A stretch of 64,000 nt of DNA from a virus. Each line of letters starts with the position of its first letter. Position 1 is the stretch's first letter. Under the pieces are notes generated by a model. The model did no database searches and was not told where the DNA came from. It was given only the letters and a program-made list of their open reading frames with translations. Location: positions 4,246 through 68,245 of the IMG/VR virus record IMGVR_UViG_3300029305_000349. The stretch is one strand, 5' to 3'. Of this stretch, positions 2-5,565 are shown piece by piece. A program made the translations under genes and the position numbers.

Positions 2-1045
2 GGAAGATATGGCGGTGCTGGTACATTAGTATCTAGAGCTAAGGGTGAAGAGTCTGTGCTGAAAAGACAGGGTACTTATCGAATCAATGTACCAGAGATT
101 AATGGCAGACCCAACGAGTTCTATGATCCTACTAAACCATTAGGAGCCAAGATCTATAAGGTAGCCGATGATGTATACTATCCTGTTCGTCAGTACGATA
201 AGGAGACCAAGACCTTTACCTACACCACTACTGAGAAAGAAGGCCGGGGCTATAAAAAGATTACCTTCCGGGCAGATGATGCGGAAGCCCGTGCTAAGTA
301 TGACCCGGGTGATCCTATAGTGGACGCCGACGGTAATGTGACCTTCAAAAGTAAGGACGGCACTCTTACCTATAAAGGTAAGTCTAGGACACAGAAGAGT
401 ACTCGTATGGCCGAGGCCGACGACGCTTATAAACTGGTATCCACACACAGACACCCTATGGAACTTCTGTATGCCGACTATGCGAATAGTATGAAGTCCC
501 TCGGTAATGAGGCCCGTCTCGAAATGCTAAAGACCACCAAGATCAAACACGATGCTCAGGCTAAGAAAGTTTATCAGGCCGAGTACGATTCTCTTATGAA
601 TAAACTTCATGATGCCGAGAAGAACACCGTTCTGGAAAGAGCCGCCCTTCGAAAGGCAAATGTGACCCTCCAGGAGAAGAGTGCCGCAGACCCCTCTTTG
701 AGTAAGAAGGACCTCCAGAAAATAGGCACCCAGGCCATGACAGCGAGTCGTGCAGAAGTAGGTGCTCTTACAAGAAAACAGCGTAATATAGAGATTACTG
801 ATAGAGAATGGGAAGCCATACAGGCAGGCGCTATATCAGAGACTATATTAAAGCGAATTCTTAATAACACCGATATAGACAAGGTTAGAGAAAGGGCTAC
901 TCCTAGAACTACTACTGTTGTTACAGAAGCTAAGAAGACTAGAATACAGGCCCTTGCTAATAGTAACTATACATTGGAGGAAATAGCTAAAAAAGTGGGC
1001 TTATCTACAAGTGCTGTTTCTAAGTATTTGAAAGGAGCAAAGTAA
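2..1045 (+). CDS. C-terminal part of a large phage protein with terminal HTH (5'-truncated; possibly the phage RNA polymerase-like protein)
   Basis: Frame is open from base 2 (GRYGGAGTLVSRAKGEESVLKRQG...) and ends in an HTH-like YTLEEIAKKVGLSTSAVSKYL. The RNAP link is recollection only; no catalytic motif lies in the window. Confidence 0.6.
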   Translation, partial: GRYGGAGTLVSRAKGEESVLKRQGTYRINVPEINGRPNEFYDPTKPLGAKIYKVADDVYYPVRQYDKETKTFTYTTTEKEGRGYKKITFRADDAEARAKYDPGDPIVDADGNVTFKSKDGTLTYKGKSRTQKSTRMAEADDAYKLVSTHRHPMELLYADYANSMKSLGNEARLEMLKTTKIKHDAQAKKVYQAEYDSLMNKLHDAEKNTVLERAALRKANVTLQEKSAADPSLSKKDLQKIGTQAMTASRAEVGALTRKQRNIEITDREWEAIQAGAISETILKRILNNTDIDKVRERATPRTTTVVTEAKKTRIQALANSNYTLEEIAKKVGLSTSAVSKYLKGAK

Positions 1046-1312
1046 TTGACGAAACAATGTTTATTAACAACAATTGACAATCCTTACAATCCTTTCACAG
1101 ACTTTAAACAATGGTTTGTTTATGATGTTATGTGTGGTTACAACACTTGTGGAAAGATTGCAAGAAATGCAAATTATACATCTTCAATGATGCAATTTGA
1201 ACAAGAAGAAGAGTTTCAAAGAGCAATCGATAAAGTTATTGAATACGATTTTCTTGGTCAATACATAAAAGTAACTGCTGATTCTTATACAACAGCATCA
1301 GCTAATACATAA
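1046..1312 (+). CDS. small conserved phage protein
   Basis: RBS AAAGGAG, TTG start, LTTIDNPYNPF motif. Confidence 0.7.
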   Translation: MTKQCLLTTIDNPYNPFTDFKQWFVYDVMCGYNTCGKIARNANYTSSMMQFEQEEEFQRAIDKVIEYDFLGQYIKVTADSYTTASANT

Positions 1313-1390
1313 TTCAGGAGATTATTATGACTTTAAACATTATTCGTGCTCATGTTTACTTTAATGTACACCGTAAGGATAATGTTTGAT

Positions 1391-1470
1391 AGGGGGAGGG
1401 GGTCCCGAAAATGACACCCCCTGCCTTTATCGGCGCGGTCTTGATATTTTCTCCGGAGGGATATTTTTGA
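1391..1470. other. putative cos/packaging-initiation region
   Basis: Non-coding G-tract/C-tract GGGGGAGGGGGTCCCG...ACACCCCC...TTCTCCGGAGGG upstream of the terS/HNH/terL module, a typical position and composition for HNH-associated cos phages. Confidence 0.4.
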
Positions 1471-1495
1471 AAAACAGTTTAAGGAGGTGGACGGT

Positions 1496-3025
1496 ATGAG
1501 TCATGTTCATAGCATATACGATACCGATAATCACTACATAATTGATCCCGTTACAAGGACAATAAGCACTACTTCGGCTAAGAATGTCCTAATGCAGGGT
1601 GACCATAACTCAGAGCGATTTACCTTTGAAGTCCCAAGAACTATAGAGGGACACGACATGTTCCAGTGCGATCTCATTGAGATTCACTATGAAAACGCTT
1701 CCAGTGGTAGAGGCGATATTAGTGCCGATTTCTACCATGTAGATGACGCCCAGTTGTCTGCGGATGATCCTTCTGTGATGATATTTAGCTGGCTTATCTC
1801 GGGTAGTGTAGCTAAGTATGTTGGTAGGGTAGCATTCTCTATACGATTTGTGTGTACTAATGACGAGTCTGAGACAGTATATGTGTGGAACACAGCAAAG
1901 TACACCGGCGTTAAAGTAAAAGCTAGTCTTAATAATACAGAACAGGTTCTCGAGGACCATTCAGATTTCGTAGCTAGAATGGAACATATAGCTGAGTCAG
2001 CTATGGAGTCTATACATGATTACGAAGAGTTAGCTTCTAGGGCGGTAAGTGTATTCGACGGGAATACCGAGAAGTTTATTCAGGCAGAACAGACGCTTAT
2101 GCAGAATTACGAACAGATAGCAACCGAAGCTACTCAGAATTACGAAGAGGGCACGGACAAAATTGTTCAGGCGGTTTCTAATGTCGATGAATACCTCGAC
2201 GGTTATAAGTATAAGGAACTGGTATTAGATGTCGAGACGGGTGATTGGGTGGTCGTTATTGATAATTTATCGTGTAACGATCCGAGTTCAACATTGGATG
2301 GAAAATTCAGGTTCCCTAACATCTCGGTTCCTATTCTTGCCAATAACGGCGATTTAATTCCACAGACTGGTAGCTTAGTACAGTTGTATATTAATGGCTC
2401 TCTTGTTTCTAAACAACGATGGCAGGGATTCCCACATTCAGTAACATTCACTCACGAAGGGCGACAATTTGAAGTAGAGTTTGACGACACTGATCTGTTT
2501 ATGAAAATATATAGTGACGTCGATACACCGTTTACAATCAGCATGGAACTTTTTACGTATTCGACGGAGTGGACTCGTATTACTGAAGCCGATTTATCAT
2601 TCTTGTTTGATAGTTCTTCAGACCAAAACTTTGAAATTGAATTTGATTTATTCAGCACCTATATGGACGTATACAGTACATCTCGCGCTAAGGTCGATCG
2701 AAATTATGTTTGTCAGTCATTAATAAACGACGCAGCCACGGGTATGTTATATTGTATAAATTTATACGTAGAAGATTATATCGATTATACAAATAGCAAT
2801 GGCGATCAATGTAACTTAGGCGTTTCATTATTTATGAAGGCTTTTGGTTTGATGTCTGCCGCGTACGAAGATGGGAAGCATGTATTGAAACCTACGGATG
2901 GTTATACATTTCAGTTAGCGACCGATTACGGTTATGTAGAAAGAATGCGTATCTACAAAATCACTAATTCTCTGAAAGCTCGCGTGTCTGACGTTCTCGA
3001 TGATATTAATGGGGAGGTGGTTTGA
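1496..3025 (+). CDS. BppU-like baseplate/receptor-binding accessory protein
   Basis: N-terminal MQGDHNSERFTFEVPRTIEGHD resembles the BppU N-domain; RBS AGGAGG precedes ATG 1496. Confidence 0.55.
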   Translation: MSHVHSIYDTDNHYIIDPVTRTISTTSAKNVLMQGDHNSERFTFEVPRTIEGHDMFQCDLIEIHYENASSGRGDISADFYHVDDAQLSADDPSVMIFSWLISGSVAKYVGRVAFSIRFVCTNDESETVYVWNTAKYTGVKVKASLNNTEQVLEDHSDFVARMEHIAESAMESIHDYEELASRAVSVFDGNTEKFIQAEQTLMQNYEQIATEATQNYEEGTDKIVQAVSNVDEYLDGYKYKELVLDVETGDWVVVIDNLSCNDPSSTLDGKFRFPNISVPILANNGDLIPQTGSLVQLYINGSLVSKQRWQGFPHSVTFTHEGRQFEVEFDDTDLFMKIYSDVDTPFTISMELFTYSTEWTRITEADLSFLFDSSSDQNFEIEFDLFSTYMDVYSTSRAKVDRNYVCQSLINDAATGMLYCINLYVEDYIDYTNSNGDQCNLGVSLFMKAFGLMSAAYEDGKHVLKPTDGYTFQLATDYGYVERMRIYKITNSLKARVSDVLDDINGEVV

Positions 3026-4542
3026 TGAGCTGTATGGAAGATAAACTTGAGTATTTGAAGGAGACGAAGCGCCTAATCAAAGAAAAGCTTATCGAACACG
3101 GCGCTGATATTTCCGATGAAACTAGTTTCCGAAACTATCCAGCAGCTATCGAATCGCTTATGGCGCCTGGTACTAGCGGTCCGTTGAAGACGTTATTTGA
3201 TGCTACTGGTAAAACCGAATACTTCATGTACAATACTACAGTAGATGTCGATTTGTCAGAAGTATTGTTTTATGATGACACCGCTAATGTTACCAGTATG
3301 AAAAATATGTTTTATAAAACAGCGCAAACCTCTATTCCTGATATGAATACATCGAAAGTTACAGACATGTCATATATGTTTAACGGATGTGGTAATTTAA
3401 CAAACATACCGTCGTTAAACACTAGTCAAGTTACTAATTTCAGCAACATGTTTTCGTCTTGTAAGTCGTTAACTTCTATTCCCCAGTTAGATACGAGTAA
3501 AGCTACTAATGTGGGGAGTATGTTTAGCTATACGACCGCTTTAACTAGTATTCCAGAGTTAGACTTACCAGCAGTCAGTTCGTTATCATATATGTTCCGC
3601 GATTCGGGTATTAAAAACGTATCTCTATTGAACACTTCTAACGTGACTAACACCTCGTACATGTTTACATATAGTGCAGTAGAAGGAATAACATCTTTAG
3701 ATACTAGTAAAGTTACTAATATGGAAAGTATGTTTGCGTATTGTGATAGCTTATCAACGTTTCCAACAGTGCTAGATTTTAGTTCGGCAACCACTACGAC
3801 GTATATGTGTCGCAACTGTACATCGCTAACTAGTGTGCCGGATCTGGTTATGCCTAAGGTTACGAATGTTGGAATGATGTTTGCAGGATGCAGTAACTTA
3901 ACCAATGTAGGTAAAATAACTGCTAATTCGTTAAGTAACTATAATTCGATGTTTCAAGATTGTACGTCGTTAGTTAGCGCTCCTGAAATGTCATTTCCGG
4001 ATGGTAAATCAGTGCTCTTAGAGAGTTTGTTTTGGGGTTGTACTTCTTTAACGGATGCTTCTGCTATAGATATTACTAACGTTGTTTCGTTATACGGAAC
4101 TTTTGGATGTTGTACCGCATTAGAAACAACACCGTCGTGGGATGTTCGTAATGTTACATACTACGATAACATATTTACAAGATGCAGCAATCTTAAGAGG
4201 TGTAATTTTAGAAACATACGTAAGTCTATAAGCTTTGGTGATTGTACTAACTTAACTATCGGAAGTATCATAAATATAATTGGAGAATTGGTGAAATCAA
4301 ACGGTACCTATCAAACGTTAACCCTTCCTTCTAAGTTTCAGGATACGCTATCCAATGTTATGCTGGTCGTTGTATTAGAGGATGGAATTACTGATGAAAT
4401 GTTAGCTGAAGATGACCTCGCGATGTCTAAGTATCCAATAACCGATTGGGGGTACGGTGAAGAGTTTATGTATGAACATTTCGACGCTTGGTATTTAAAT
4501 AGTTATATGTCCACGAAGGGTTGGGAGATACGCTACTACTAA
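3022..4542 (+). CDS. BspA/DUF285-type leucine-rich-repeat protein (receptor-binding/adhesin-like)
   Basis: About 13 repeats of xDTSxVTNMxxMFxxCxxLTSIP. Confidence 0.8.
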   Translation: MMSCMEDKLEYLKETKRLIKEKLIEHGADISDETSFRNYPAAIESLMAPGTSGPLKTLFDATGKTEYFMYNTTVDVDLSEVLFYDDTANVTSMKNMFYKTAQTSIPDMNTSKVTDMSYMFNGCGNLTNIPSLNTSQVTNFSNMFSSCKSLTSIPQLDTSKATNVGSMFSYTTALTSIPELDLPAVSSLSYMFRDSGIKNVSLLNTSNVTNTSYMFTYSAVEGITSLDTSKVTNMESMFAYCDSLSTFPTVLDFSSATTTTYMCRNCTSLTSVPDLVMPKVTNVGMMFAGCSNLTNVGKITANSLSNYNSMFQDCTSLVSAPEMSFPDGKSVLLESLFWGCTSLTDASAIDITNVVSLYGTFGCCTALETTPSWDVRNVTYYDNIFTRCSNLKRCNFRNIRKSISFGDCTNLTIGSIINIIGELVKSNGTYQTLTLPSKFQDTLSNVMLVVVLEDGITDEMLAEDDLAMSKYPITDWGYGEEFMYEHFDAWYLNSYMSTKGWEIRYY

Positions 4543-4575
4543 TTCGAAATGGATTACACTCCGTAACACTATGTT

Positions 4576-4685
4576 TATCCTACCACTTACACGAGCTTAC
4601 AGGGTCAGCCCTCGATTAAAAAAACTGCCCGCTTTTCTCCTTTCGCATAAAGTTGGCTCTGTAAGTTCTTGCAAGTGGTAGGATA
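4576..4685 (+). ncRNA. long hairpin RNA with anti-Shine-Dalgarno loop
   Basis: 34-bp stem (28 Watson-Crick, 4 G-U, 2 mismatches) between 4576-4609 and 4652-4685; the 42-nt loop contains TTTTCTCCTTTCG. Confidence 0.6.
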
Positions 4686-4690
4686 TTTTC

Positions 4691-4765
4691 GGACCCTTAT
4701 CTCATGTTGGTTAGAGAACTCGCCTCATAAGCGAGAAGTCCCAGGTTCGATTCCTGGAGGGCCCA
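4691..4765 (+). tRNA. tRNA with CAU anticodon (Ile2-like or elongator Met)
   Basis: Cloverleaf: acceptor GGACCCT/AGGGCCC (one mismatch), D stem TCTC/GAGA, anticodon arm CTCGC-CTCATAA-GCGAG, T arm CCAGG-TTCGATT-CCTGG; discriminator A; CCA not encoded. Confidence 0.9.
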
Positions 4766-4796
4766 TTTAGTCGAGCATACGAGAGGAGGCGTAAGT

Positions 4797-5150
4797 ATGG
4801 CTAAAAGAGCAGCTACTTCTTCCGGATCAACTCGTACATTAAGAACCCCTATGACACAGGAGGCTAGAGAGAGCCAGCTAATCTCCCTTGCTTACGATTT
4901 GGTAGAGCAGCGATTATTAGATGGTACTGCCTCATCTCAGGAGACTACACATTTCCTAAAACAGGGCACTATGAAGTACAAGCTTGAGCTGGAGAAACTT
5001 AAAGCTGAAAACGCATTGGCTGATGCAAAGAGGGCATCTCTGGAAGATCAGAAGAACAGGGAAGAGACATACAAGGAAGCTATTAAAGCTATGCGAGTAT
5101 ATTCCGGTTATGGTGGGGATGATGAGTATGATGAAGAATACGACGATTAA
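4797..5150 (+). CDS. putative terminase small subunit
   Basis: Helical 117-aa protein upstream of HNH and terL; strong RBS. Confidence 0.5.
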   Translation: MAKRAATSSGSTRTLRTPMTQEARESQLISLAYDLVEQRLLDGTASSQETTHFLKQGTMKYKLELEKLKAENALADAKRASLEDQKNREETYKEAIKAMRVYSGYGGDDEYDEEYDD

Positions 5151-5565
5151 GACTTATTCCGAACTCATCACCATCCCAACTTTCATCGAGCGTTACAGAT
5201 ATTTAAAGCTTGGTGGAAAGGTCGGAGAAGAGACTTTCGGTTTCGATCGATACCTCAACCAATATTTCTACAATTCTAAAGAATGGCGAGATATTCGAGA
5301 TTATGTGATTGTAAGAGATAACGGTTGCGATCTCGCTCACCCTGATCAACCGATCCCAGACGGAGTTAGGATTTACATCCACCACATGAATCCGATTACA
5401 ATGGAAGACATCGTGAAACGTAGTAAATACCTGCTCGATCCAGAGTACTTGATCAGCACAATCAAATTAACACATGACGCTATCCATTACGGAGACGAAC
5501 ATCTCTTACCGAAAGCGCTTGTGACAAGAACAAAATACGATACTTGTCCGTGGAAGCGGGCATAA
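5128..5565 (+). CDS. HNH endonuclease (packaging-associated)
   Basis: RDNGCDL...IHHMNPI...THDAIHYG motif. Confidence 0.8.
   Translation: MMKNTTIKTYSELITIPTFIERYRYLKLGGKVGEETFGFDRYLNQYFYNSKEWRDIRDYVIVRDNGCDLAHPDQPIPDGVRIYIHHMNPITMEDIVKRSKYLLDPEYLISTIKLTHDAIHYGDEHLLPKALVTRTKYDTCPWKRA

What the first reader, a model, noticed from the sequence alone, without database searches (positions are those of the whole stretch)
4576..4685. Hairpin RNA displaying an anti-Shine-Dalgarno loop, directly upstream of the tRNA
Seen: a 34-bp stem whose four G-U wobbles favour folding as + strand RNA, with a loop containing UUUUCUCCUUUCG (4633-4645). This is the perfect complement of GAAAGGAGAAAA, the RBS of at least six phage genes (14976, 39471, 54527, 56568, 58264, 58600), five of them in the early half. 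The hairpin ends 5 nt before the tRNA, so RNase P processing would release it. Inference: a late sRNA that silences AAAGGAG-type RBSs on early phage or host mRNAs, analogous to C-rich-loop sRNAs of Firmicutes.
Basis: partly seen in the sequence, partly recalled or inferred. Interest (0 to 1): 0.72.

Follow-up and report, generated by a model that had tools for sequence, protein, structure and literature searches.

The report
Phage hairpin RNA with anti-RBS loop
A long folded hairpin at the head of this gut phage's particle-building genes shows in its loop the same eight letters the ribosome uses to dock on messages; it belongs to a widespread, undescribed phage family and probably acts on translation, but it has never been seen as RNA.

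Summary
The hairpin is real: 32 pairs over 34 positions, four of them G-U, z = -7.2. It is one member of a large family not found in Rfam or in my paper searches. A covariance model finds it on the gene-sense strand in 67 of 81 related viral loci, in 15 of 20 genome-contig loci, and once each in 22 of 23 phage records. Stems differ between lineages but stay paired: 26 of 26 pairs show double changes, and 90.5% of cells pair against 65.7% when shuffled. The loop core CTCCTTTC is exact in 60 of 66 distinct copies. G-U pairs outnumber A-C mismatches 74 to 8, so the + strand folds as a single strand, most simply as RNA.

New here: the hairpin lies 3.1 kb inside the cohesive end rather than about 50 nt inside it. 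It is followed by a tRNA found in 0 of 101 related loci. Diverged copies occur in cultured Arthrobacter phages.

RNase P release is not a family trait. Silencing of early genes is untested, though two genome-wide statistics lean that way. No RNA data exist.

The scan noted this family before on other DNA (e1-5853124, e1-5853137, e1-5870153, e1-5973333).

The parts
4576..4685 (+). Long hairpin: arms 4576-4609 and 4652-4685, 42-nt loop 4610-4651
   Evidence: Fold. Model R1 scores 71.5 bits, E 7e-14, at 4574-4688 on the + strand, the only copy in the window. X1 and X11 contigs span it with 0 differences.
4637..4644 (+). Loop core CTCCTTTC, the anti-Shine-Dalgarno motif; in this genome it extends to TTTTCTCCTTTCG at 4633-4645
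   Evidence: Four of its eight columns are invariant and the other four at least 90% conserved in alignment A1. Exact in 60 of 66 distinct full-length family members.
4691..4765 (+). tRNA-Met(CAT), 5 nt after the stem; no encoded CCA
   Evidence: ARAGORN; Rfam tRNA 58.2 bits. Absent from all 101 related loci scanned.
4543..4552 (+). TTCGAAATGG, a one-mismatch copy of the late-region motif TTCAAAATGG. It lies right after the stop of the 506-aa gene and 24 nt before the hairpin.
   Evidence: In relatives L117, L055 and L030 the same motif precedes the hairpin.
4780..4789 (+). Shine-Dalgarno region CGAGAGGAGG of the next gene. It can form 10 pairs (2 G-U) with loop UCUCCUUUCG.
   Evidence: Read. 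Its duplex energy with the whole loop ranks 3 of 86 heuristic genes and 7 of 95 with a 24-nt loop piece.
4797..5150 (+). 117-aa gene (phrog_4259, function unknown). It is the first gene of the conserved module: HNH endonuclease, virion proteins, large terminase, portal, protease.
   Evidence: Same gene order as orf4-orf10 of Lactococcus phage 1706.
1440..1480 (+). Probable physical left (cohesive) end at 1440, with the conserved end motif CTTGATATTTTCTCCGGAGGGATATTTTTGAAAAA
   Evidence: A contig boundary falls exactly at 1440 in 4 of 4 runs. This is the homologous position at which many relatives' contigs start, and at which the records of cultured phages 1706, GantcherGoblin, ClubPenguin, Burley and Caterpillar start.
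1487..4542 (+). Two accessory genes (512 aa; 506 aa with leucine-rich-repeat-like phrog hits) lying between the end motif and the hairpin
   Evidence: In L008 and L009 the homologue of the 512-aa gene lies downstream of the hairpin instead.

Best explanation
The hairpin is this phage's copy of a conserved + sense RNA element. It is carried once per genome at the head of the virion-module operon in a large group of cos phages related to Lactococcus phage 1706 (gut Clostridia phages and some Arthrobacter phages).

A 25-45-bp stem holds out a large loop whose invariant CUCCUUUC is identical to the core of the 16S rRNA 3' tail (the 16S sequence is recalled, not from a call). I propose that the loop base-pairs with GAAAGGAG-type Shine-Dalgarno sequences and so lowers translation initiation. 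The element would act mainly in trans, after being cut out of the leader. A stem this long is a natural RNase III substrate. In this genome RNase P cutting at the adjacent tRNA would also free it. The likeliest targets are the phage's own strong ribosome-binding sites, which are commoner in the non-structural arm, and possibly host messages.

Shown: the structure, its conservation, the folded strand, the loop motif, and one copy per genome. Inferred: transcription, processing, pairing, targets and timing.
For: Structure and family:
- An alignment not fitted to structure gave 26 consensus pairs, 25 with compensatory changes.
- 90.5% of cells pair, against 65.7% when shuffled (0 of 500 shuffles reach it) and 37-48% when partners are slid. 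All 26 pairs change on both sides.
- Model R1 hits the + strand in 67 of 81 viral loci and 15 of 20 genome-contig loci. It hits one place each in 22 of 23 virus records.

Folded strand:
- 74 G-U pairs against 8 A.C mismatches, taking one hairpin per cluster from 23 clusters.
- A mirrored test gave 73 G-U in 738 pairs on the + fold against 15 in 593 on the - fold, and the + strand energy is better in 18 of 23.

Loop:
- CTCCTTTC is exact in 60 of 66 distinct copies. CTCCTTT occurs only 4 times on the + strand of the whole 64-kb window.
- The motif is more constant than the Shine-Dalgarno sequence of the gene that follows it.

Autonomy:
- The hairpin lies 3.1 kb from the end motif here but 15-60 nt from it in most relatives.
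- In 8 loci, genes are inserted between the hairpin and the 117-aa gene. Here a tRNA separates them.

Targets:
- Pyrimidine at position +1 after GGAG is 25-48% in 6 genomes whose loop has G before CUCC, against 7-35% in 11 genomes with U (one-sided p = 0.002, relatedness ignored). On the TerL tree the G-type genomes sit in at least two separately supported pairs: G004 with the non-G G013, and G006 with G010. The backbone is unresolved.
- Exact GAAAGGAG precedes 235 of 1151 right-arm genes against 117 of 903 left-arm heuristic genes (p = 9e-6). The right-arm share is higher in 19 of 21 genomes.
Against: - No transcript has been seen.
- No promoter or terminator consensus flanks the hairpin, so a discrete sRNA needs processing that is only inferred.
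- An 8-bp generic anti-SD gives no target specificity and would need high copy number to compete with ribosomes.
- The window's 12-nt match is not conserved: relatives' own 12-mers occur 0-1 times in their own genomes.
- Loops with A before CUCC show no excess of U at position +1 of the ribosome-binding sites (G007 10 of 54, G008 3 of 21).
- The loop's 3' flank shows no significant covariation with the sites' 5' flank (p = 0.16).
- The and statistics use heuristic gene calls, and ignores relatedness.
- The next gene's Shine-Dalgarno region is among the better matches to the loop (median percentile 0.14; 15 of 16 genomes below 0.5). That fits a cis role equally well.
- The element is missing or degenerate in 6 of 9 cultured relatives tested, so the shared packaging module does not need it.
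- In the MFE fold the motif is at least 6 of 8 nt unpaired in only 39 of 60 copies.
Confidence: 0.45

Rival explanations
1. A cis-acting leader element. The loop pairs with the Shine-Dalgarno sequence of the first gene or genes downstream, or the stem serves as an RNase III or stability site. Either way it would set how much of the first virion-module proteins is made.
For: - The hairpin ends 23-112 nt before the next start codon in the 32 distinct copies first collected.
- The next gene's Shine-Dalgarno region ranks in the top 10% of loop matches in 8 of 16 genomes, median percentile 0.14. It ranks 3 of 86 in the window.
- Short-leader Streptomyces relatives without the long hairpin show local CACTCC...GGAGTG or ACTTTC...GAAAGG pairing with the gene-1 Shine-Dalgarno sequence (seen by eye).
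- L033 pairs a variant loop CTCCCTTTC with a variant SD GAAAGGGG.
Against: - The gene that follows the hairpin differs between lineages (117-aa gene, 505-aa gene, 110-aa gene).
- Here a tRNA, which is normally excised, sits between hairpin and gene.
- The loop stays CUCCUUUC where the downstream SD is GAAAGAGGA or GGAAGAGGA (L068, L053).
- A strong SD matches any anti-SD, so the ranks do not discriminate.
- A simple local hairpin would be enough for sequestration.
Confidence: 0.25
2. A DNA-level signal beside the cohesive end: a terminase-recognition (cosB-like) site, a single-strand replication-priming site, or a cruciform.
For: - In most relatives the hairpin begins 15-60 nt inside the conserved end motif, where lambda keeps cosB (position; the lambda layout is recalled).
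- There is one copy per genome.
- G.T pairs are also tolerated in single-stranded DNA, so the strand bias does not exclude a + strand DNA hairpin.
Against: - In the window it lies 3.1 kb from the end. At least ten other loci have a gene or a terminator-like hairpin directly upstream rather than the end motif.
- Double-stranded protein-binding repeats should show no G.T against A.C bias, and should conserve sequence rather than pairing.
- Loops of 40-90 nt disfavour cruciform extrusion (general knowledge).
- It is absent from 6 of 9 cultured relatives that share the same end motif and packaging genes.
Confidence: 0.08
3. A protein-recognition hairpin. One option is a decoy of the 16S rRNA tail for a factor or toxin that acts on that tail. 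The other is a nascent-RNA signal (anti-termination or start-up) for the phage's own RNA polymerase at the head of the late operon.
For: - The loop core equals the 16S tail core (recalled) and is as invariant as an rRNA segment, across phages of two bacterial phyla.
- This phage group encodes a putative RNA polymerase next to the end (passages of bioRxiv 10.1101/842583).
- A strand-specific late-region motif precedes the hairpin here and in some relatives.
Against: - No candidate binding protein was identified.
- The base before CUCC is never C in the 60 copies tabulated, unlike the 16S tail (where a hairpin holds two motifs only the last was tabulated).
- The correlation with ribosome-binding-site flanks is expected for RNA-RNA pairing, not for a protein decoy.
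Confidence: 0.12
4. A chance inverted repeat or an assembly artefact at a genome end.
For: Inverted repeats can arise as fold-back artefacts near physical ends.
Against: - z = -7.2.
- Contigs from two different runs span it with 0 differences.
- It is conserved with covariation in dozens of independent assemblies and in cultured phage genomes.
Confidence: 0.01

Closest known systems
C/U-rich-loop base-pairing sRNAs of Gram-positive bacteria (RsaE/RoxS, LhrC of Listeria, hairpins of S. aureus RNAIII)
   Same: They present an unpaired pyrimidine motif in a hairpin loop that is complementary to the Shine-Dalgarno sequence, and they repress initiation by pairing. LhrC: abstract seen in the listing (PMC4132741). 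The others are recalled.
   Different: Those are chromosomal genes with their own promoter and terminator, have short stems and use UCCC/CCCC motifs. This element is phage-borne, has no terminator, has a 25-45-bp stem, carries the exact 16S-tail core CUCCUUUC, and sits in an operon leader. No Rfam family matches it.
c4 antisense RNA of phages P1 and P7 (Rfam RF01695)
   Same: A phage RNA encoded upstream in the same operon as its target. Its loops pair around a ribosome-binding site (passages of PMC12197685). Its precursor is cut by RNase P (recalled), which parallels the tRNA junction here.
   Different: c4 targets one specific message (ant) through specific sequences and decides immunity. 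Here the motif is a generic anti-SD. There is no Rfam match, and the host range and fold differ.
T4 RegB endoribonuclease (functional analogue only, recalled)
   Same: A phage device that switches off early messages by attacking the GGAG of their Shine-Dalgarno sequences.
   Different: RegB is a protein nuclease. Here an RNA would mask the site rather than cut it. Nothing about it was tested here.
phi29 packaging RNA (pRNA, Rfam RF00044)
   Same: A structured RNA encoded next to the left genome end, upstream of the packaging genes.
   Different: There is no Rfam match. This phage has a classical large terminase, an HNH endonuclease and a portal. pRNA has no anti-SD loop (recalled).
Lambda cosB (terminase small-subunit sites between cosN and the first gene; recalled)
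   Same: It occupies the same place in most relatives, between the cohesive end and the first gene, and has inverted symmetry.
   Different: Here pairing, not sequence, is conserved. There is a strong G-U against A-C strand bias. The element is displaced 3.1 kb in this genome.

Membership tests
Left-end anti-SD hairpin family (defined here by model R1; not in Rfam) | Long unbranched stem kept by compensatory changes | tested here: met
   The window copy scores 71.5 bits, E 7e-14. For the family, 26 of 26 pairs change on both sides and 90.5% of cells pair against 65.7% when shuffled.
Left-end anti-SD hairpin family (defined here by model R1; not in Rfam) | Loop carries CUCCUUUC on the strand of the virion genes | tested here: met
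   Window 4637-4644. Exact in 60 of 66 distinct members. That count leans on a model that contains the motif. A motif-blind inverted-repeat search found the arms first.
Left-end anti-SD hairpin family (defined here by model R1; not in Rfam) | Lies just inside the cohesive end and upstream of the phrog_4259-HNH module, once per genome | tested here: inconclusive
   It is single-copy and upstream of the module. But it is 3.1 kb from the end motif, with two genes between them.
RsaE/RoxS-type C-rich-loop sRNAs | Match to the family's covariance model | tested here: not met
   Apart from the tRNA, nothing reached a gathering score in window 4000-5200 at E up to 10, and no match overlapped the hairpin. 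In six relatives' loci at E up to 1 the only hit was a plant miRNA model at E 0.87.
RsaE/RoxS-type C-rich-loop sRNAs | Free-standing gene with its own promoter and intrinsic terminator | tested here: not met
   No promoter-like or terminator-like site at the hairpin. No T-run follows the stem in relatives.
RsaE/RoxS-type C-rich-loop sRNAs | Pairs with Shine-Dalgarno regions of target messages | not testable with these tools
   Only complementarity and genome-wide statistics could be computed.
c4 antisense RNA (RF01695) | Match to the covariance model | tested here: not met
c4 antisense RNA (RF01695) | Processed out of the leader of the operon it regulates | not testable with these tools
   The sequence shows a tRNA 5 nt downstream. 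No RNA data were available (one search listed no RNA holder).
phi29 pRNA (RF00044) | Match to the covariance model, together with a phi29-type packaging system | tested here: not met
   No Rfam match. A large terminase (phrog_9), an HNH endonuclease and a portal are present.
cosB-like terminase-binding repeats (double-stranded DNA) | Fixed position next to the cleavage site | tested here: not met
   The end motif is at 1440-1480 and the hairpin at 4576. The feature is met in most relatives.
cosB-like terminase-binding repeats (double-stranded DNA) | Constraint on the duplex, hence no strand bias among arm mismatches | tested here: not met
   74 G-U against 8 A.C; 73 against 15 in the mirrored test.
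Intrinsic terminator | Short GC-rich stem, small loop, U-tract | tested here: not met
   Not reported by the scan. The loop is 42 nt and the tail is ATATTTTCGG.

The most novel reading that the evidence does not exclude
The hairpin is a phage-made mimic of the ribosome's 16S rRNA tail. Cut out of the late-operon leader, it would accumulate late in infection and compete with 30S subunits for strong GAAAGGAG-type ribosome-binding sites. Its loop flanks would be tuned to the phage's own, mostly non-structural-arm, sites. That would make it an RNA-only early-to-late translation switch, conserved from gut Clostridia phages to Arthrobacter phages.
Probability: 0.25. Interest if true: 0.85.

Novelty: new variant of a known kind. 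Interest (0 to 1): 0.66.

Why it matters
If the loop really pairs with ribosome-binding sites, this would be a common, so far unnamed way for tailed phages of two bacterial phyla to steer translation with a single RNA. It would be a non-protein counterpart of T4 RegB.

The family is large. It has one copy per genome, and model hits in 67 of 81 viral loci and 15 of 20 genome-contig loci. It has a clean covariation signal and is not matched by any Rfam family.

Diverged copies sit in cultured, genetically tractable Arthrobacter phages (GantcherGoblin, Zeina, Caterpillar). The question can therefore be taken straight to the bench.

The copy in this window is the informative exception. It is displaced from the genome end and uncoupled from the next gene by a tRNA. 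That argues for an autonomous RNA rather than a packaging signal.

Tried and rejected
Expression data. The look-up of sequencing runs listed no RNA holder. All 17 runs were DNA kept as contigs, so nothing can be said about transcripts, ends or processing.

Read laying. In read laying, window 1000-1439 had no cover in any of the 4 runs, and X12 had none over 4507-4673. The tool states that such holes are not evidence, and I did not use them.

Extended antisense targets. Beyond the six 12-mers (one extends to 13 nt), the 43-nt loop has no longer complement in the window. A 9-nt AAGCGGGCA match before gene 5578 is within chance by my rough estimate.

Own-loop against own-genome matches. The 12-mer and 11-mer cross tables show no general enrichment.

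Loop 3' flank against ribosome-binding-site 5' flank. No significant covariation (p = 0.16).

Minus-strand gene start in the loop. The - strand GAAAGGAG is followed by no ATG, GTG or TTG at a usable distance (read).

A 36-aa + strand ORF (4571-4681). It has no Shine-Dalgarno sequence. The family conserves pairing and an 8-mer, not a reading frame, so I rejected it without a formal coding test.

Sigma-70 promoter before the hairpin. A good TTGAAA-17-TATATT is seen by eye in L051 and a fair one in L075, but none in the window or in many others. Left open.

Papers. Five searches found no description of a phage hairpin with an anti-SD loop beside a cohesive end. I saw only search listings and abstracts, plus passages of 10.1101/842583 and PMC12197685. 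Supplements were not consulted and may hold annotation of non-coding regions. The subscription-only paper on phage 1706 (Garneau et al. 2008, recalled) could not be read.

Faecalibacterium phage records. They matched the 117-aa protein (2 records) but never appeared in the listed rows, so I did not examine them.
Full report
WHAT IS THERE

Window 4576-4685 is a long hairpin. It has 32 pairs over 34 positions per arm, four of them G-U, one A.C and one C.U mismatch, and a 42-nt loop. MFE is -46.8 kcal/mol, z = -7.2, and none of 200 shuffles folds as well. The loop holds TTTTCTCCTTTCG (4633-4645). Its 12-nt complement GAAAGGAGAAAA occurs six times on the + strand, against 0.03 expected, and each copy lies 1-5 nt before an ATG. 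A tRNA-Met(CAT) gene starts 5 nt after the stem. The only correction is that, for this one sequence, the - strand folds nearly as well (-46.1).

CONTEXT

The window is bases 4246-68245 of a 68,245-bp viral record. Nearly all genes are on the + strand.

Downstream of the hairpin come a 117-aa gene (phrog_4259, function unknown), an HNH endonuclease, virion proteins, the large terminase, the portal and a protease. This is the gene order of orf4-orf10 of Lactococcus phage 1706. A preprint describes this phage group as shared between Firmicutes and Actinobacteria and as encoding a putative RNA polymerase near the genome end (passages of bioRxiv 10.1101/842583).

Upstream lie two accessory genes (512 aa and 506 aa). 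Before them, at 1440-1480, is a motif CTTGATATTTTCTCCGGAGGGATATTTTTGAAAAA. Several observations mark its first base as the probable physical left (cohesive) end:
- Contigs from 4 of 4 independent DNA runs have a boundary exactly at 1440.
- Many full-length contigs of relatives start at the homologous base.
- The records of cultured phages 1706, GantcherGoblin, ClubPenguin, Burley and Caterpillar start there too.
- One relative's contig (L059) carries what I recall to be sequencing-adapter sequence fused to that base.

I take this as likely, not proven.

THE HAIRPIN IS A FAMILY

I fetched 80 viral loci that encode relatives of the 117-aa protein. A motif-blind inverted-repeat search found long arms with unrelated sequences upstream of the gene in most of them. 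Folding showed 30-45-bp stems with large loops.

I collected 32 distinct hairpins that enclose the pyrimidine motif. Two with fewer than 12 contiguous pairs were dropped. The other 30 fall into 23 clusters at 80% arm identity.

I aligned one hairpin per cluster with MAFFT, without fitting to structure. In the loop core CTCCTTTC, four columns are invariant and the other four at least 90% conserved, while mean column identity is 34%. RNAalifold gave 26 pairs, 25 with compensatory changes. For that structure, 90.5% of cells pair. That compares with 65.7% when shuffled (0 of 500 shuffles reach it) and 37-48% when the partners are slid by 1-3 columns. All 26 pairs change on both sides.

A covariance model R1 built from this alignment gave these results:
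- One copy in the window: 71.5 bits, E 7e-14.
- A + strand hit in 67 of 81 loci. The 14 without a hit include two with almost no upstream DNA (L029, L070), two whose hairpins I could see by eye (L043, L062), and others in which genes fill the 3-kb flank.
- A + strand hit in 15 of 20 loci from bacterial genome bins. Most of these bins are labelled Oscillospiraceae, Lachnospiraceae or Clostridia. Binning of phage contigs is unreliable.
- One place each in 22 of 23 whole virus records.
- Wherever both strands are listed, the + strand scores higher.

Among 66 distinct full-length hits, 60 carry exact CTCCTTTC and 6 carry close variants. That count leans on a model that contains the motif. Even so, CTCCTTT occurs only 4 times on the + strand of the whole 64-kb window.

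Rfam has no matching family. Five paper searches found no description.

Earlier notes of this scan describe the same family in other genomes. I treated them as leads only and reached the points above independently.

WHICH STRAND, AND DNA OR RNA

If the arms were a double-stranded protein-binding repeat, transitions should create G.T and A.C mismatches about equally often. Taking one hairpin per cluster, I count 74 G-U pairs against 8 A.C mismatches. A mirrored procedure that folds each strand separately gives 73 G-U in 738 pairs on the + strand against 15 in 593 on the - strand. The + strand is more stable in 18 of 23, and in 50 of 68 upstream regions. So the + strand folds as a single strand. 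Because that is the sense strand of every neighbouring gene, RNA is the simplest reading. A + strand DNA hairpin cannot be excluded by sequence alone.

WHAT THIS WINDOW ADDS

In most relatives the hairpin begins 15-60 nt inside the end motif and 25-110 nt before the 117-aa gene. Neither link is strict.
- In eight loci (L004, L005, L008, L009, L027, L076, L078 and GenBank MT835495), genes are inserted between the hairpin and the 117-aa gene.
- In the window, and in about ten other loci, the hairpin follows a gene or a terminator-like hairpin rather than the end motif.
- The homologue of the window's 512-aa gene lies downstream of the hairpin in L008 and L009, but upstream of it here.
- The tRNA is unique to this genome: no tRNA is found in any of 101 related loci.

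A displacement of 3.1 kb from the end argues against a packaging-site role. A tRNA between hairpin and gene argues against an obligatory cis link to that gene's ribosome-binding site.

CULTURED CARRIERS

Model R1 detects diverged, GC-richer copies in three Arthrobacter phages:
- GantcherGoblin: 27.8 bits, E 3e-5. It is the second of two tandem long hairpins in a 437-nt leader.
- Zeina: 28.1 bits.
- Caterpillar: 16.4 bits, E 0.026, a weak hit.

The loops of GantcherGoblin and Caterpillar, which I read, carry ACTCCTTTCAAGAGCG; Zeina's loop I did not read.

Lactococcus phage 1706 has only a degenerate version, a roughly 15-bp stem enclosing TTCTCCTTTACA. Its model score of 5.2 bits is not significant.

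ClubPenguin, Esketit, ReqiPoco6, ReqiPepy6 and Burley have none in the stretches searched. So 3 of 9 cultured relatives carry it.

(a) The 12-nt match is peculiar to this genome. The window's 12-mer occurs 6 times in its own genome. The corresponding 12-mers of five relatives occur 0, 1, 0, 0 and 1 times in theirs. Only the 8-nt core is general, and it equals the core of the 16S rRNA tail (recalled). The loop would therefore pair with any strong GAAAGGAG site. There are 14-23 such + strand sites per genome.

(b) The loop is more constant than the Shine-Dalgarno sequence of the gene behind it. That gene's site does rank high among loop matches: 3 of 86 here, and a median percentile of 0.14 over 16 genomes. 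But strong sites match any anti-SD, so this does not separate cis from trans action.

(c) The base 5' of CUCC in the loop correlates with the base 3' of GGAG in the phage's own ribosome-binding sites. Pyrimidine there is 41, 48, 46, 28, 35 and 25% in six genomes with G-type loops. It is 7-35% in eleven genomes with U-type loops (one-sided Mann-Whitney p = 0.002). Relatedness is ignored in that test. Three of the six G-type genomes are one lineage. On a poorly resolved TerL tree the G-type genomes sit in at least two separately supported pairs: G004 with the non-G G013, and G006 with G010. Two results go the other way: A-type loops show no predicted excess of U, and the other flank shows no covariation (p = 0.16).

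(d) Exact GAAAGGAG precedes 20.4% of heuristic genes in the right, non-structural arm (235 of 1151) against 13.0% in the left arm (117 of 903). The odds ratio is 0.58 and p = 9e-6, with the same direction in 19 of 21 genomes. This fits a device aimed at non-structural genes. It could also merely reflect translational coupling among late genes.

MECHANISM I COMMIT TO (confidence about 0.45)

The element is a + sense RNA hairpin transcribed with the virion-module operon. A 25-45-bp stem is a natural RNase III substrate, so the top of the hairpin is probably released in all carriers. Here RNase P at the tRNA would cut 5 nt behind it. The free loop then pairs with GAAAGGAG-type sites and damps initiation, mostly on the phage's own non-structural messages. 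Structure, strand, motif and copy number are shown. Transcription, cutting, pairing and timing are inferred.

The rivals are a cis-acting leader (0.25), a protein-recognition hairpin or 16S-tail decoy (0.12), a DNA-level end signal (0.08) and an artefact (0.01).

COMPARISON WITH KNOWN SYSTEMS

It would work like the pyrimidine-loop sRNAs of Gram-positive bacteria and like the c4 RNA of P1 and P7. It is a member of neither family: it matches no covariance model, has no promoter-terminator unit of its own, and has a different architecture. It is not a pRNA, not a cosB-type repeat and not a terminator (see the membership rows). I class it as a new variant of a known kind. The family is undescribed in Rfam and in the papers I could search.

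Noticed in passing
window 5988-34508 (14 exact copies); variant at 4543-4552: TTCAAAATGG(A) is the commonest 10-mer of the window. It has 14 exact and 8 one-mismatch copies, all on the + strand, and 20 of the 22 fall in the structural region. About half lie with their ATG as a start codon behind a Shine-Dalgarno sequence, and about half lie inside long ORFs. It is also + strand only in relatives G001-G005 (2-7 copies each). Its role is unknown; a late promoter for the phage's own RNA polymerase or a processing site are possibilities.
   Followed up: partly
window 1390-1480; L085, L087, L090, L164, L166 positions 1-40: The genome-end motif C(C/T)T..AAAAT(T/A)TCCCCGG.GGGA.TTTTT is conserved from gut Clostridia phages to Lactococcus, Arthrobacter, Streptomyces and Gordonia phages. 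In the window a G-rich terminator-like hairpin precedes it. It is probably the cos site of the whole supergroup.
   Followed up: partly
window 4691-4765: The tRNA with anticodon CAT has a G1-C72 pair, an A3.C70 mismatch in the acceptor stem and no GGG/CCC anticodon stem. It does not look like an initiator. I did not determine whether it is an elongator tRNA-Met or a lysidine-type tRNA-Ile. No CCA is encoded (read).
   Followed up: no
window 1487-4542; L008 280-1797: The 512-aa gene and the 506-aa leucine-rich-repeat-like gene form a movable accessory cassette. The 512-aa homologue sits on the other side of the hairpin in L008 and L009.
   Followed up: partly
L087 45-167 and 181-317; L166 44-144, 396-504, 626-760: Arthrobacter phages GantcherGoblin and Caterpillar carry two or three tandem long hairpins in unusually long (437-830 nt) left-end leaders. 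Pyrimidine CUCCU-type motifs occur in more than one loop.
   Followed up: partly
L059 1-32: One relative's contig begins with what looks like sequencing-adapter sequence (identity recalled), fused directly to the CTTTATATTT end base. That would be expected if an adapter was ligated to a physical DNA end.
   Followed up: no
window, whole: CTATTATGAG(A) occurs 9-10 times in the window and is a second over-represented word. I did not look at its positions or strand.
   Followed up: no
G025 (a Clostridia genome bin), contigs C1, C2, C23, C98: One genome bin holds four separate copies of the hairpin on four contigs. That implies several related phages or prophages in one bin.
   Followed up: no
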